Sequence record: OL362041.1
Reading direction: 5' to 3' (one strand)
Length of the DNA stretch: 64,000 nt
Origin: Escherichia phage vB_Eco_OMNI12
In this document: positions 44,717 to 50,002 of the stretch, in pieces
Layout: each line of letters opens with the position of its first letter
How positions within the stretch are numbered: the stretch's first letter is position 1
The notes under the pieces: generated by a model
Seen by the model: the letters and a program-made list of their open reading frames with translations, nothing else
What the model was told of the DNA's origin: nothing
Database searches by the model: none
Translations under genes and position numbers: made by a program

Positions 44717-46981
44717 TCATAATTTACAGGATGAACAATCTTCAGCTTTTGGAGTTTCTATTTCATAATCATCAGTACCAGAACCATCACGGGTATTATG
44801 ATAATAGAAATTTTTAATGCCATAATACCATCCGTATAGCATGTCATCAATCATTATTGACATTGGAACCTTTCCTTTTGGAAAAATCTGCGGGTCATAG
44901 TATGTATTCGCTGAAGCTGATTGACATACCCATTTCAGCATAATAGCTACCTGCGTAAGATAAGGTTTATTACCTTTCTTAGCTAATTTCCATGTATAAT
45001 CATAGAGGTCTATGTTATGCTCAATATTGGGCACGACTTGATTAAAGGAGCCCTCTTTTGATTCTTTAACAGAGACTGGTCCACGTGGAGGCTCGATACC
45101 GTTTGTACTGTTAGAAACTTGGGAAGATGACTCACATGGCATAAGTGCTGATAATGTGCTATTACGGATGCCAAAGAGCTTAAGGTCTTCCCGCAGCGCC
45201 GACCAGTCACAAACGTATTTTGGAGCTGCGATTTGGTCAATCTTTTTATTGTACCAGTCGATAGGTAATTCGCCTCGAGACCAACGAGTGTCTGAATAAT
45301 ATTCGCAAGGTCCTTTTTCTTTGGCGAGCTTAATGGATGCTTTAATGAGCCCATACTGTAATCTCTCAAATAGTTCATGTGTTAAATCGTTAGCATCTTC
45401 ATAAGAAGCAAAGTTACTTGCCAGCCAAGCTGCATAGTTGGTAACACCTACACCGAGGTTACGGCGCTTTTTAGCTTTTTCTGCTTCAGGAACTGGATAT
45501 CCTTGGTAATCCAAAAGATTATCAAGAGCACGAACTTGAACTTCTGCCAATTCATTAATTTTATCTTGGTCTTGCCAGTCAAAATTATCTAGTACGAATG
45601 CAGAGAGAGTACACAATCCAATTTCAGCATCAGGACTATTCACATCATTTGTTGGAATAGCAATTTCACAACACAAGTTGCTCTGACGAATAGGTGCCTT
45701 TTCACGAATAAACGGAGTATAGTTATTCGTATTATCTATGAACTGTACATAAATCCTTGCTGTTCCTGAGCGTTCAGTCATGAGTAATTCAAACAGTTCA
45801 CGGGCTTTAATACGCTTTTTACGAATATTAGGGTCTTTTTCTGCGGCTTCGTATAATTCACGGAAACGGTCTTGGTCTTTAAAATAAGAATAATAAAGCT
45901 CGCCACCCATTTCATGCGGACTGAACAAAGTAATGTAATCGTTCTTTCCAAAACGTTCCATCATCAAATCATTCAGCTGAACACCATAATCCATATGACG
46001 AATGCGGTTTTCTTCTACGCCTTTGTTATTTTTCAAAACGAGAAGATTTTCAACTTCCAAATGCCAAATAGGATAATAAGCAGTAGCAGCGCCGCCACGA
46101 ATTCCGCCCTGTGAACATGATTTAACAGCAGTCTGAAAATGTTTCCAAAAAGGAATAACACCAGTATGGCGTACTTCACCCATGCCAATCTTAGAACCTT
46201 CAGCACGAATCATACCAACGTTAATACCAATTCCAGCACGTTTGGAGATATATTCAACAATTGAAGCAGAAGCCTTATTAATAGACTTTAATGAATCACC
46301 TGCCTCAATAACAACGCATGAACTAAACTGCCGAGTTGGAGTACGGCAACCAGCCATAATAGGAGTTGGTAATGAAATCTGTCGAGTAGATACTGCTTCA
46401 TAAAAACGAATAACATGTTTTAATCTATCAACAGGTTCATCTTGATGCAATGCCATTCCAATAGTCATAAATGCAAACTGTGGAGTTTCATAAATTTGAC
46501 CAGTGGTTTTATCTTTAACTAGATATTTTTCTTTTAATTGCATCGCCCCGGAATAAGTAAATTCCATATCCCGCTCGTGCTTAATTTTTGATTCTAAAAA
46601 TGTAATTTCTTCTGCTGAATATTTTGACAATAATTCAGGGTCATATTTACCTTCATTTACACAGTAAGAAATATGGTCAATAAATGAACGTGGTTCATAC
46701 TGCCCATAAACATGCTTACGAAGAGCAAACATTAAACAGCGTGCAGCTACATATTGATAATCAGGTTCTTCAACCGAAATAGAATTCGCAGCGGCCTTAA
46801 TGACAATAGTCTGAATATCATCAGTTGTCATTCCATCACGGAGATAAGATTTAATATTTTCATATAATTCATAAGGATCTACTGATGTTCCCTCAGCTGC
46901 CCAAGATAAAACTTTAATAATTTTTTGTGGGTCAAAGCTCTGAGAAACACCACTACTTTTGATAACATTAATTAATTGCAT
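44717..46981 (-). CDS. nrdA: ribonucleotide reductase alpha subunit
   Basis: 754 aa; ATP-cone N-terminus and catalytic Cys motifs (NLCCEIAIP, CESSS). Confidence 0.9.
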   Translation of the reverse strand: MQLINVIKSSGVSQSFDPQKIIKVLSWAAEGTSVDPYELYENIKSYLRDGMTTDDIQTIVIKAAANSISVEEPDYQYVAARCLMFALRKHVYGQYEPRSFIDHISYCVNEGKYDPELLSKYSAEEITFLESKIKHERDMEFTYSGAMQLKEKYLVKDKTTGQIYETPQFAFMTIGMALHQDEPVDRLKHVIRFYEAVSTRQISLPTPIMAGCRTPTRQFSSCVVIEAGDSLKSINKASASIVEYISKRAGIGINVGMIRAEGSKIGMGEVRHTGVIPFWKHFQTAVKSCSQGGIRGGAATAYYPIWHLEVENLLVLKNNKGVEENRIRHMDYGVQLNDLMMERFGKNDYITLFSPHEMGGELYYSYFKDQDRFRELYEAAEKDPNIRKKRIKARELFELLMTERSGTARIYVQFIDNTNNYTPFIREKAPIRQSNLCCEIAIPTNDVNSPDAEIGLCTLSAFVLDNFDWQDQDKINELAEVQVRALDNLLDYQGYPVPEAEKAKKRRNLGVGVTNYAAWLASNFASYEDANDLTHELFERLQYGLIKASIKLAKEKGPCEYYSDTRWSRGELPIDWYNKKIDQIAAPKYVCDWSALREDLKLFGIRNSTLSALMPCESSSQVSNSTNGIEPPRGPVSVKESKEGSFNQVVPNIEHNIDLYDYTWKLAKKGNKPYLTQVAIMLKWVCQSASANTYYDPQIFPKGKVPMSIMIDDMLYGWYYGIKNFYYHNTRDGSGTDDYEIETPKAEDCSSCKL

Positions 46982-47298
46982 AAGTCCTCAACTTGAAAAT
47001 CGTCTTTAAACAATCGGTTAACTATATGAGCTATTATATCACCATGACACGGCTTTGGTTTACATGTGCATCCTAGCCTCATTCCACGTAAAGGCTCTAA
47101 ATGTGCTTTAGTTATTTCTCCGGATTTAATTCGACGTATAAAATCTTTTTTGAATAATTCAATGGCAGCCTCCCGGCTGCCAGCATCTTTACCGACGTAA
47201 TTTCCCCAAAATGTACCACGGTGAATATTAACATCAAAGTCGGATTTGTATTTATTCACTACCCGACATAGACGGCCCGCGCGGTGATAATTCGGCAT
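46972..47298 (-). CDS. DUF4326-like protein (nrdA.1 position)
   Basis: 108 aa; WGN...[12 protein letters not shown] pattern. Confidence 0.5.
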
Positions 47299-47515
47299 AT
47301 TGTTTTTCCGTTAAAACAGTAATATCGTAGTAACAGTCAGAAGAAGTTTTAACTGTGGAAATTTTATTATCAAAATACTCACGAGTCATTTTATGAGTAT
47401 AATATTTTTTGCCATAAATGATAATAGGCTGATTTGGTCCTGGAACTTCTAGCTCACTTGGATTAGGAAGTGTAAAAAGAACTACACCAGAAGTATCTTT
47501 AAATCGTAAAATCAT
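47252..47515 (-). CDS. hypothetical protein (nrdA.2 position)
   Basis: 87 aa ORF; 47-nt overlap with downstream ORF. Confidence 0.4.
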
Positions 47516-48372
47516 ATTGCCATTTTCCCTTTAATTGCTGGATGCGATTCATAATTTTCAAGGATAAAATCTTTCGGTTTCATGTATTCAGTTAACCAGT
47601 AAAGCTGTGTTTCGGTGTCACAATTTCCAAACTCTATAGGCCAATCAATTTTAAGTTCACATAGTTCTTTAGGCTCACGACGTAAAATTTCTTTACATTG
47701 CTCAGTATGATTCATATAGATGTGAGTATTACCACCAGAAAATATCAAATCTCCTGGGATAAGATTACACATCTTAGCCACAATATGCGTCAAGGCAGCG
47801 TACGAGGCAATGTTGAATGGCAATCCCAAGAAAACATCTACACTTCTTTGGTACCATTGTAAATCAAGATAACCATTACGCACATTAAACTGATAGAACA
47901 TATGACAGGGCGGTAATGCCATTTGATTGATTTCAGCTGGATTCCATGCTGAAACGATTTGACGTCGATCAGTTGGTAATTTTTTAATACGATCAATAGT
48001 TTCAACTAATTGATCCACACCGCCGAAATCACGCCATTGTTTACCGTATATAGGACCAAGTTCACCACTATGATATCCTAGGTCTTTAGCCTGGTTTTCA
48101 TAGTTATCGTCCCAAATAGTTTTACCTTGAATAAGACTACCATGTGTGCGAAGACGTAAATCATTAACATTGGTAGAACCGGAAATAAACCATAGAAGCT
48201 CAGCAATGCATGCATTCCATGCAAGCTTCTTAGTTGTTACCGCAGGAAAACCTTTAGTTAAATCCCAACGTAATTTAGTACCGAACAAAGCAATTGTTCC
48301 TGTGCCTGTTCGGTCATCGGTTTCATAGCCATTTTCAAAAATGTCTTTAATTAAATCTTGGTATTGTTTCAT
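47512..48372 (-). CDS. td: thymidylate synthase, uninterrupted
   Basis: 286 aa continuous ORF; catalytic PPCH motif ([11 protein letters not shown]). Confidence 0.9.
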
Positions 48373-48417
48373 TTAGTACCTTATATAAATTATAATACAT
48401 TTTATGAAGCTAAATAA

Positions 48418-48765
48418 TCAATACGGTTTAGCATCAAATTTTCTCTCAATTTCAGGCGTGAAATATAATTCTTTACCGCGTTTGGAAAAGCGACCAATAA
48501 TATGATAATTATTCTCATCAAACGTGATATTACCAATATCCATAGCTTTCAACCAAATATCGATATTTCTATCCAGCTTTATGTCAAAATTCCAATACGG
48601 AGAACTATTACCGAAAATACTGCAAGCGGATTCAGTGAAACAACTGCTATAAATCTTGTCTTTAGGAACTACTAATTGATAGACACCTTTAATAAACTGA
48701 GGACCCTGCCACTTTGGCTGTTTCGTGTCTTTTTCTAATAGAATAGGGTAATAATTAAAATTCAT
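48418..48765 (-). CDS. hypothetical protein between frd and td
   Basis: 115 aa ORF; no motif recognised. Confidence 0.45.
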   Translation of the reverse strand: MNFNYYPILLEKDTKQPKWQGPQFIKGVYQLVVPKDKIYSSCFTESACSIFGNSSPYWNFDIKLDRNIDIWLKAMDIGNITFDENNYHIIGRFSKRGKELYFTPEIERKFDAKPY

Positions 48766-48784
48766 ATTTCCGCCACGCGTTATT

Positions 48785-49611
<827 letters not shown>

Positions 49612-49621
49612 ATTATTTTCC

Positions 49622-49864
49622 TTAAACAGACTTTTTCACAATTTTCCAATCAGCTTTAAACTGATCGACGTCAGAGTGATAAATCCAAAATCCTGCGCTT
49701 TCACCGTCTTCATAAAGCGGACACCCATCACATTCATCTTCCCATCCCATGCCACGTAAAAGGTGTTCAGCTTTTTCAACAAGTTCAGAATCTTTACCGA
49801 TGATATTAAAATACCATTTACCTCTAACTTCTGAATCTTTGATGCTCTGGCGTTGTAATCTCAT
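49622..49864 (-). CDS. hypothetical protein (frd.2-like position)
   Basis: 80 aa ORF. Confidence 0.45.
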   Translation of the reverse strand: MRLQRQSIKDSEVRGKWYFNIIGKDSELVEKAEHLLRGMGWEDECDGCPLYEDGESAGFWIYHSDVDQFKADWKIVKKSV

Positions 49865-49874
49865 TTTATTCTCC

Positions 49875-49943
49875 TTAGCAAGCTTTAATCAAAAGATATA
49901 AACAGACCAACATAACTGCTGCCATAATATAAGGTGCGAACAT
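49875..49943 (-). CDS. candidate 22-aa hydrophobic micro-peptide (MFAPYIMAAVMLVCLYLLIKAC); not in the supplied ORF track
   Basis: Hand-translated; GGAG about 9 nt upstream of ATG. Confidence 0.3.
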   Translation of the reverse strand: MFAPYIMAAVMLVCLYLLIKAC

Positions 49944-50002
49944 TTTCTTTTCTCCATTAGTTTTGATAGGGTAATAGTATCACACTACTACCCTTCTGTA
50001 AA

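What the first reader, a model, noticed from the sequence alone, without database searches (positions are those of the whole stretch)
48418..48765. Unassigned 115-aa ORF between frd and td
In T4, frd and td are directly adjacent as far as I recall. Here a 115-aa ORF with no motif I recognise sits between them, so it may be an accessory insertion in a nucleotide-metabolism operon.
Basis: partly seen in the sequence, partly recalled or inferred. Interest (0 to 1): 0.4.

Follow-up and report, generated by a model that had tools for sequence, protein, structure and literature searches.

The report
Td.1: small conserved T-even phage protein
The ORF is a real, strongly conserved small phage gene (already catalogued as "td.1", function unknown) that most T4-like phages carry between their dihydrofolate reductase and thymidylate synthase genes, and phage T4 is the exception that has deleted it.

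Summary
A 115-aa ORF lies at 48418..48765 on the minus strand, between frd and an intronless td. In T4 those two genes overlap by 4 bp. The reading "accessory insertion" is only partly right.

- **Already known gene.** T6 names it td.1, RB14/RB51 records call it RB32ORF229c, and it belongs to PHROG 1928. It is always annotated as hypothetical.
- **Distribution.** About 70% of Tequatrovirus genomes carry it. Diverged orthologues (28-46% identity) sit in the same slot in at least eight other T4-like genera, usually followed by a tandem paralogue and sometimes a 68-aa ORF.
- **T4 lost it.** The T4 junction is what remains after a 416-bp deletion between two 9-bp repeats (TAAATGAAA).
- **Selection.** dN/dS is 0.05-0.06, as tight as for td.
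- **Structure.** AlphaFold gives a confident beta-rich fold (pLDDT 92). It has no significant PDB match, but the weak hits are almost all OB folds.
- **Not an enzyme.** There is no nuclease or other enzyme signature, and the invariant residues are Q, W, K and three G.

Best guess: a non-catalytic, OB-like binding protein co-expressed with frd and td and dispensable for the phage. Its ligand is unknown. Interest is low to moderate.

The parts
48418..48765 (-). td.1 coding sequence, 115 aa, 13.7 kDa, pI 8.5. It belongs to PHROG 1928.
   Evidence: ORF. PHROG match at E=1e-35. Named td.1 in T6 record AY262134.2. dN/dS 0.05-0.06. AlphaFold2 pLDDT 92. The exact sequence is on 104 public contigs, always named 'hypothetical protein'.
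48785..49366 (-). frd (dihydrofolate reductase), the gene upstream of td.1 in the same transcription direction.
   Evidence: ORF. Annotated as dihydrofolate reductase in matching records. 43-53% identical to Frd of other genera.
47512..48372 (-). td (thymidylate synthase), the gene downstream of td.1. It is intronless here.
   Evidence: Continuous 286-aa ORF. T4, T6 and KarlGJung have td in two joined pieces with I-TevI inside.
48783..48791 (-). Left copy of the 9-bp direct repeat TAAATGAAA. It spans the frd stop codon.
48367..48375 (-). Right copy of the 9-bp direct repeat TAAATGAAA. It spans the td start codon. Deleting 48367..48782 (416 bp) recreates the T4 frd/td ATGA overlap.
   Evidence: the virtual deletion matches T4 at 127 of 130 positions. 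The 416 bp equals the extra span seen in td.1-bearing records (717 against 301).
48766..48784 (-). 19-nt frd-td.1 spacer (AATAACGCGTGGCGGAAAT). It holds a weak Shine-Dalgarno-like GGCGGA. At the frd stop there is a relic ATGAAATAA that resembles the td start ATGAAACAA.
   Evidence: Sequence read directly.
48373..48417 (-). 45-nt td.1-td spacer, absent from T4. It holds the td Shine-Dalgarno AAGG and part of a sigma-70-like promoter match (TTGATT, 18 nt, TATTAT, at 48421..48392). A MotA-box-like TAGCTTCA also lies here.
   Evidence: Promoter scan (a consensus match only, 9 of 12). Sequence. T6 has a 44-nt spacer. Mosigvirus-type alleles have only 13-15 nt.

Best explanation
The ORF is td.1, a genuine protein-coding early-region gene that was already in the frd-td gap of the common ancestor of the T4-like (Tevenvirinae) phages. 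There it was probably the first of a small set: td.1, a tandem paralogue (called td.1b here), and a 68-aa gene.

It is read in the same direction as frd and td. In other genera it overlaps them, so it is made together with the nucleotide-precursor enzymes.

The product is a 13.7-kDa, mildly basic, single-domain protein. It is beta-rich with one helix between the third and fourth main strands, which is an OB-like layout. It has no conserved catalytic residues.

It therefore most likely acts by binding a partner stoichiometrically rather than as an enzyme. The candidate binding face is formed by the conserved Q16-x-x-W19 loop, Y29, and the G91-R92-F93-x-K95-x-G97 hairpin. The partner could be a single-stranded nucleic acid or a protein and is not known.

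The gene is dispensable. T4 and a minority of relatives removed it by a 416-bp deletion between two 9-bp repeats, which fused frd and td into the familiar ATGA overlap.

Shown: the gene is real, conserved, syntenic and under purifying selection; the model is confident; the repeats and the deletion geometry are as described. Inferred: co-expression with frd and td, the non-catalytic binding role, the OB-like classification, the binding face, and the direction of the event (loss in T4).
For: **Real gene**
- dN/dS is 0.05-0.06, against 0.07-0.08 for td and 0.10-0.20 for frd in the same phage pairs.
- 362 records carry it at 90% identity or more.
- The exact protein is on 104 contigs.

**Ancestral and syntenic**
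- The order frd, td.1, (paralogue), (68-aa ORF), td is found in eight further genera, in a metagenomic T4-like contig, and in 15 of 15 IMG/VR loci.
- Td.1 identity is 28-46%, against 43-53% for Frd and 71-80% for Td.
- There is no GC anomaly.

**Paralogy**
- The HMM of the second-ORF family hits the window's Td.1 at E=4e-7, and nothing else in the window scores below E=0.4.
- Both genes fall in PHROG 1928.

**Deletion in T4**
- 9-bp repeats flank a 416-bp cassette, and a virtual deletion matches T4 at 127 of 130 positions.
- The T4-type junction is present in only about 9% of the sampled records.

**Non-catalytic**
- The invariant residues across 28 family members are Q16, W19, G27, G91, K95 and G97.
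- No His, Asp, Glu, Cys or Ser column is invariant.
- No Pfam, NCBIfam or PADLOC match.

**Fold**
- pLDDT 92, pTM 0.84 for Td.1 and pLDDT 87.6 for the paralogue.
- Both models independently draw weak PDB hits that, by my reading of the hit names, are mostly OB folds: SSB, RPA14/32, Stn1/Ten1, RMI2, RuvA domain I, PriB, CspA, aIF1A.
- The family is mildly basic, median pI 8.6.
Against: - No PDB match is significant. The best Foldseek E-values are 0.5 and 0.2 and TM-scores are 0.39 or lower, so 'OB-like' rests on enrichment among weak hits plus the order of secondary structure.
- No ligand, partner or phenotype is known, and no paper mentions the gene.
- Conserved gene order in T4-like early regions is common and does not by itself imply a functional link to frd and td.
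- The relic ATGAAATAA at the frd stop could also be read as a trace of a former T4-type junction. On that reading td.1 was re-introduced into Tequatrovirus by recombination with a relative.
- The presence/absence percentages come from a systematic sample of 57 records, not a full census.
Confidence: 0.55

Rival explanations
1. Td.1 is a host-takeover or counter-defence protein. Like many small, dispensable T-even early proteins, it binds and neutralises a host protein or a defence-system component. Its position next to frd and td would then be historical only.
For: - It is dispensable and polymorphic among close relatives, with an unrelated 68-aa gene or nothing in the same slot.
- The family is confined to T4-like phages: about 20 true clusters among 1.84 billion representative proteins.
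- Tandem paralogues exist.
- It is very conserved among E. coli-group phages (93-100%) but only about 30% identical in Klebsiella or Salmonella phages. That pattern would fit a host-specific target.
- It has no catalytic residues.
Against: - dN/dS of 0.05 shows no sign of an arms race at the scale measured.
- The strict position between frd and td holds across every genus examined.
- There is no match to any defence-related model, although PADLOC covers defence systems rather than anti-defence proteins.
- No phenotype is reported.
Confidence: 0.25
2. Td.1 is a dedicated accessory subunit of the phage nucleotide-precursor machinery. It would bind dihydrofolate reductase and/or thymidylate synthase, or tether them to gp32 and the replisome, and it is kept between their genes for stoichiometric co-translation.
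For: - Placement between frd and td is invariant, usually with overlapping stop and start codons, in nine genera and 15 IMG/VR genomes.
- Purifying selection is as strong as on td.
- The weak structural hits are to OB proteins that work as small subunits of complexes, such as RPA14/32, Stn1/Ten1 and RMI2.
Against: - T4, the phage in which the dNTP-synthesising complex was defined (established knowledge), lacks the gene altogether. About 28% of sampled Tequatroviruses also lack it.
- None of the roughly 45 family members retrieved by the protein-database searches (all 95-119 aa) is fused to a nucleotide-metabolism domain.
- Gene order in T4-like genomes is conserved for many functionally unrelated neighbours.
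Confidence: 0.12
3. Td.1 is a recent accessory insertion into an ancestral T4-like operon in which frd and td were adjacent.
For: - The cassette is bounded by 9-bp direct repeats, and a relic ATGAAATAA resembling the td start lies at the frd stop.
- The gene is present or absent among near-identical phages.
- Td.1 is 93% identical between phages whose Frd is only 60-87% identical, which shows recombinational exchange of this segment.
Against: - Orthologues occupy the same slot in every other genus examined, with divergence comparable to Frd.
- The T4-type junction is the rarest allele.
- The composition is native.
- No mobility gene is attached.
Confidence: 0.1
4. Td.1 is a free-standing homing endonuclease, as it is labelled in some GenBank records (for example phages KarlGJung and FriedrichMiescher).
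For: - The annotation 'putative homing endonuclease' appears in those records.
- The locus is polymorphic and lies in a region rich in homing endonuclease genes (I-TevI, mobE, segG).
Against: - No GIY-YIG, HNH, LAGLIDADG or other nuclease domain matches in Pfam for any of 23 family members.
- The family HMM scores I-TevI, I-TevIII, MobE and a GIY-YIG protein at 2.5 bits or less.
- No invariant His, Asp, Glu or Asn is present.
- At 115 aa it is smaller than the endonucleases compared here (I-TevI 245 aa, T6 MobE 213 aa, T4 MobE 141 aa).
- It has a fixed locus, unlike the sporadic distribution of the seg and mob genes.
Confidence: 0.02

Closest known systems
Td.1 of phage T6 (GenBank AY262134.2, ABI48938.1), also labelled RB32ORF229c in RB14/RB51 records; PHROG family phrog_1928 (unknown function)
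   Same: It is 99% identical to the T6 protein and sits in the same position between frd and td. It matches the full PHROG profile at E=1e-35. This is the same gene.
   Different: Nothing of substance differs. The family has no described function, structure or phenotype, so membership explains nothing about mechanism.
Small OB-fold subunits (RPA14/RPA32D, Stn1/Ten1, RMI2, SSB, RuvA domain I)
   Same: - The secondary-structure order fits: strands, one helix between the third and fourth main strands, then a long terminal hairpin.
- Most of the top 50 weak Foldseek hits for both Td.1 and its paralogue are, by my reading of the hit names, OB folds.
- The conserved aromatic and basic residues fall where the L12 loop, strand 2 and the L45 hairpin of an OB fold would be (inference).
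- Tandem paralogues recall heterodimeric OB pairs.
   Different: - There is no significant structural or sequence match: E 0.2 or higher, TM 0.39 or lower, identity 5-17%.
- Extra short strands are present at residues 38-64.
- No evidence of nucleic-acid binding exists.
- Membership is not established.
Other small uncharacterised ORFs embedded in the T4 nucleotide-metabolism cluster (frd.1/DUF5417, nrdA.1/DUF4326, nrdA.2/DUF5496)
   Same: They have the same genomic neighbourhood, the same orientation, similar size and unknown function, and are conserved among T4-like phages.
   Different: There is no sequence relationship. Unlike those genes, td.1 is missing from T4 itself.
Free-standing homing endonucleases of T-even phages (Seg/GIY-YIG, Mob/HNH)
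   Same: They share presence/absence polymorphism between close relatives and a location between conserved genes.
   Different: Td.1 has no nuclease motifs and no similarity to them, is a smaller protein, and occupies a fixed ancestral locus.

Membership tests
Td.1 / PHROG 1928 | Full-length match to the family profile | tested here: met
   phrog_1928 at E=1e-35, residues 4-111 against profile positions 2-125 of 126. 99% identical to T6 Td.1.
Td.1 / PHROG 1928 | Location between frd and td on the same strand | tested here: met
   Window. T6. Eight further genera. IMG/VR loci.
Td.1 / PHROG 1928 | Conserved motifs Q-x-x-W near the N-terminus and G-R-F-x-K-x-G in the C-terminal hairpin | tested here: met
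   Q16, W19, G91, K95 and G97 are invariant, and R92 and F93 are conserved in 25 and 27 of 28 sequences.
Homing endonuclease (GIY-YIG, HNH, LAGLIDADG, PD-(D/E)XK) | Recognisable nuclease catalytic domain or motif | tested here: not met
   No Pfam hit for any of 23 members at E of 1 or less. The family HMM scores T4 I-TevI, I-TevIII, MobE and a GIY-YIG ORF at 2.5 bits or less.
Homing endonuclease (GIY-YIG, HNH, LAGLIDADG, PD-(D/E)XK) | Invariant metal-binding or catalytic residues (His, Asp, Glu, Asn, Tyr, Arg sets) | tested here: not met
   Only D13 (22 of 28), H26 (21 of 28, and K in this protein), N79 (22 of 28) and E107 (20 of 28) are even partly conserved.
Homing endonuclease (GIY-YIG, HNH, LAGLIDADG, PD-(D/E)XK) | Site-specific DNA cleavage and homing into genomes that lack the gene | not testable with these tools
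   This needs cleavage assays and mixed-infection crosses.
OB fold (oligonucleotide/oligosaccharide-binding) | Five-stranded closed beta-barrel with a helix between strands 3 and 4 | tested here: inconclusive
OB fold (oligonucleotide/oligosaccharide-binding) | Binding of single-stranded nucleic acid or another oligomeric ligand on the L12/L45 face | not testable with these tools
   Only indirect evidence exists: conserved W19, Y29, R92, F93 and K95, and median pI 8.6.
Dihydrofolate reductase (the label given to this ORF in some records, e.g. phages ADUt and JLBYU24) | Match to the DHFR_1 domain | tested here: not met
   No Pfam hit. The true frd is the neighbouring 193-aa ORF. The label is a misannotation.
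Known anti-phage defence components (PADLOC) | Match to a defence-system protein model | tested here: not met
   No hit at E of 1 or less.

The most novel reading that the evidence does not exclude
Td.1 and its tandem paralogue would be a phage-specific, highly diverged pair of OB-fold proteins. They would work as a homo- or heterodimer, in the manner of RPA14/32 or Stn1/Ten1, binding single-stranded DNA or RNA. In that role they could couple the nucleotide-precursor enzymes to the replication apparatus or regulate translation of the frd-td message. T-even phages would have reduced the pair to one gene and T4 to none.
Probability: 0.15. Interest if true: 0.5.

Novelty: already known. Interest (0 to 1): 0.25.

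Why it matters
**Annotation.** T4 is used as the reference map for its relatives, and at this locus it is atypical. The "extra" gene is the ancestral state, and T4's well-known frd/td overlap is a secondary fusion.

**Biology.** Td.1 is one of the many conserved, strongly constrained T-even proteins with no known role. It has a confident predicted fold with no significant match among solved structures and a clear set of conserved surface-type residues. That makes it a tractable target: it is small and soluble, natural knock-outs exist, and natural allelic replacements exist.

**Limits.** Nothing here points to a new kind of system.

Tried and rejected
**Searches that found nothing**
- Pfam, NCBIfam and PADLOC scans, and a profile search of PDB sequences.
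- A word-indexed protein search with the single sequence, which returned only 3 close relatives.
- A full HMMER scan of 1.84 billion representatives found 22 hits. Two of them (P0021 and P0023) are low-complexity repeat artefacts and were discarded.
- Foldseek against PDB for both models gave nothing significant.
- Foldseek against BFVD returned only uncharacterised T4-like phage proteins.
- An Rfam scan of 47000..50000 gave only a chance sub-threshold hit to a Drosophila lncRNA model.
- Literature searches for td.1, RB32ORF229c and phrog_1928 found no paper that discusses the gene. The mobE paper only cites the T6 accession.

- The search for related loci with the mixed alignment A5 failed because no stretch was conserved enough. 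The paralogue alignment A6 worked.

**Tests that did not work as planned**
- A 52-bp T4 junction query could not separate the alleles, because the tool joined the two halves across the insert. It was replaced by a 301-bp query read by span and number of pieces.

**Ideas rejected**
- Homing endonuclease and DHFR labels.
- DNA mimic: the family is basic, not acidic.
- Foreign origin: the GC content is native.
- A second copy in the window: none.
- A second copy in T4: none in 1-50000 or 138000-148500. The remaining 108 kb of T4 was not scanned.

Full report
**1. The observation**

One search lists an ATG-initiated ORF at 48418..48765 on the minus strand, 115 aa long. Upstream in the same direction lies a 193-aa ORF at 48785..49366, which is dihydrofolate reductase (frd). 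Downstream lies an uninterrupted 286-aa ORF at 47512..48372, which is thymidylate synthase (td). The 20-kb region is about 98% identical to Tequatrovirus phages such as APTC-EC-2A and vB_EcoM_G4498.

In T4 (NC_000866), frd (145109..145690) and td exon 1 (ending at 145112) overlap by 4 bp with nothing between them.

**2. It is a real gene and is already catalogued**

- A tblastn search of 50,697 phage records finds the protein in 588 records. In 362 of them identity is 90% or more.
- The T6 record AY262134.2 names it td.1, "hypothetical protein". RB14 and RB51 records call it RB32ORF229c.
- It matches PHROG 1928, "unknown function", at E=1e-35.
- The exact sequence occurs on 104 public contigs, always as "hypothetical protein".
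- Against alleles that are 92-93% identical in protein, dN/dS is 0.052-0.058 at dS 0.63-0.73. For td the value is 0.07-0.08, and for frd it is 0.10-0.20.
- An AlphaFold2 model built from 23 sequences has pLDDT 92 and pTM 0.84.

The short plus-strand ORFs overlapping it have no support. No Rfam family is present.

**3. Distribution and history**

Orthologues sit immediately after frd in eight further genera:
- Kanagawavirus (ZX14)
- Mosugukvirus (PM2)
- Jiaodavirus (KP17)
- Gelderlandvirus (S16)
- Marfavirus (P545)
- Moonvirus (CF1)
- Winklervirus (Kc304)
- Mosigvirus (Shf125875)

Excluding Mosigvirus (93%), Td.1 identity to the window protein in these genera is 28-46%. Frd identity is 43-53% and Td identity is 71-80% in the same genomes. 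The gene has therefore diverged with its neighbours. Its GC content (0.30-0.35) is like the surroundings.

In most of these genera a second ORF of 113-124 aa follows td.1.
- It is a paralogue. Its HMM hits the window's Td.1 at E=4e-7, and nothing else in the window scores below E=0.4.
- It also falls in PHROG 1928.

Some genomes add a 68-69-aa ORF (PHROG 9550) before td.

All 15 IMG/VR T4-like loci found with the paralogue profile show Frd, td.1b, (the 68-aa ORF), Td, NrdA in that order; td.1 precedes td.1b in 14 of them and was not detected in L027.

Within Tequatrovirus-type records the junction has three alleles. These come from a systematic sample of 57 classifiable records out of 514 matches:

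| Allele at the frd-td junction | Records | Share | Examples |
|---|---|---|---|
| td.1 | 41 | 72% | T2, T6, RB3, RB14, RB51 |
| 68-aa ORF alone | 11 | 19% | fPS-65, pSs-1 |
| T4-type direct overlap | 5 | 9% | T4, vB_EcoM_112, HY03, G28 |

Independent counts agree roughly. There are 362 records with td.1 and 135 with the 68-aa ORF at 90% identity or more.

On the coding strand the td.1 cassette is flanked by the 9-bp direct repeat TAAATGAAA. One copy covers the frd stop (48783..48791) and the other covers the td start (48367..48375). Deleting the 416 bp in between reproduces the T4 junction at 127 of 130 positions.

The simplest history is an ancestral set of small genes in the frd-td gap that has been whittled down differently in different lineages. 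T4 is the end point.

There is one caveat. The sequence ATGAAATAA at the frd stop resembles the td start. It could instead be a scar of a T4-type junction into which td.1 was recombined back from a relative. Recombination certainly shuffles this segment: Td.1 is 93% identical between phages whose Frd is only 60-87% identical.

**4. What the protein is**

The sequence-based searches found no characterised relative:
- Pfam, NCBIfam and PADLOC give nothing.
- A profile search of all PDB sequences gives nothing credible.
- A full HMMER scan of 1.84 billion representative proteins finds only about 20 true clusters, all 95-119 aa and stand-alone.
- A profile search of the 5.8-billion-protein collection adds only paralogues, again with no fusions.

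The family is thus confined to T4-like phages.

The residues invariant across 28 orthologues and paralogues are Q16, W19, G27, G91, K95 and G97. L9, Y29, R92, F93 and F102 are nearly invariant. No His, Asp, Glu, Cys or Ser column is invariant, and position 26, which is His in most members, is Lys here. This pattern fits a scaffold or binding protein, not an enzyme.

The family is mildly basic, with median pI 8.6 and net charge +2. It is therefore not a DNA mimic.

The model has this order of elements:
- strands at residues 6-12, 27-34, 38-40, 48-50 and 62-64;
- a helix at 68-76;
- a strand at 80-82;
- a long hairpin at 86-96 and 99-104.

Foldseek against PDB gives no significant match, with best E=0.5 and TM about 0.3. 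However, most of the top 50 hits are, by my reading of their names, OB-fold proteins: SSB, RPA14/32, RMI2, RuvA domain I, Stn1/Ten1, PriB, CspA, aIF1A and the LysRS N-domain.

An independent model of the paralogue (pLDDT 87.6) draws the same set, with best E=0.2, probability 0.77 and TM 0.39 or lower. BFVD returns only uncharacterised T4-like phage proteins.

I read this as a divergent OB-like barrel, held at moderate confidence. If that is right, the conserved Q-x-x-W loop, Y29 and the GRFxKxG hairpin fall on the canonical ligand-binding side of an OB fold (the L12 loop, strand 2 and the L45 hairpin). That last step is inference.

**5. How it most likely works**

The protein is probably made with Frd and Td; this is inferred from gene arrangement and was not tested. 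It has the same orientation, a 19-nt spacer after frd in this phage, and overlapping stop and start codons in other genera. It probably acts as a non-catalytic binder.

Which partner it binds cannot be decided here. My estimates are:
- a host or defence protein, about 0.25;
- a single-stranded nucleic acid, about 0.25 (this falls within the best explanation);
- Frd, Td or the replisome, about 0.12.

It is dispensable for growth on laboratory hosts, since T4 lacks it.

**6. Labels to reject**

- "Putative homing endonuclease", used in BASEL-collection records, is not supported. There is no nuclease domain, the family HMM scores I-TevI, I-TevIII and MobE at 2.5 bits or less, there are no catalytic residues, and the locus is fixed.
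- "Dihydrofolate reductase", used for this ORF in a few records, is a misannotation.

**7. Verdict**

It is an already catalogued gene of unknown function. Interest is low to moderate. Its main value is as a correction to T4-centred annotation and as a tractable uncharacterised protein with a confident fold that has no significant match in the PDB.

Noticed in passing
L011:754-960 (Yersinia phage fPS-65 g232c); also L008:3148-3354 and L015:6670-6879: An unrelated 68-69-aa ORF (PHROG 9550, unknown function) occupies the frd-td gap instead of td.1 in about 19% of sampled Tequatroviruses and in JS98-like Dhakaviruses. In Marfavirus and in one metagenomic contig it sits alongside td.1 and the paralogue. 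Homologues at about 43% identity occur in Phapecoctavirus phages, which are not T4-like.
   Followed up: partly
window 47512..48372 (-): td is a continuous 286-aa ORF with no group I intron and no I-TevI. T4, T6 and KarlGJung carry the intron. Presence of td.1 and presence of the intron are independent: T6 and KarlGJung have both, T4 has only the intron, and this phage has only td.1.
   Followed up: partly
window 49366..49611 (-): An 81-aa ORF (PHROG 3183, no Pfam match) lies between frd and frd.1, where T4 has only a 71-bp gap. KarlGJung has this ORF plus a further 119-aa ORF there. This is another small-gene polymorphism next to frd.
   Followed up: no
window 48392..48421 (-) and the 45-nt spacer 48373..48417: A sigma-70-like promoter match (TTGATT, 18 nt, TATTAT) and a MotA-box-like TAGCTTCA lie in the td.1-td spacer, which T4 lacks. 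T6 has the same long spacer, whereas Mosigvirus-type alleles have only 13-15 nt. If the element is functional, td would have its own promoter in td.1-bearing T-even phages.
   Followed up: no
L013 (Escherichia phage NHEP36) 917-2724: The segment is mosaic. Compared with the window, Frd is only 60% identical, while Td.1 is 93% and Td 88% identical. This indicates a recombination breakpoint at or near the frd/td.1 boundary.
   Followed up: no
GenBank records hit (e.g. OQ466432.1, OK272476.1, OK274152.1, PQ571308.1, MZ501089.1): The td.1 ORF is variously mislabelled as 'dihydrofolate reductase', 'putative glucose-1-phosphate adenylyltransferase' or 'putative homing endonuclease'. None of these labels is supported by domain searches.
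   Followed up: yes
window 46972..47298 (-) and 47252..47515 (-): nrdA.1 (DUF4326, 108 aa) and nrdA.2 (DUF5496, 87 aa) overlap by 47 nt, as they do in T4. Both are conserved proteins of unknown function lying between td and nrdA.
   Followed up: no
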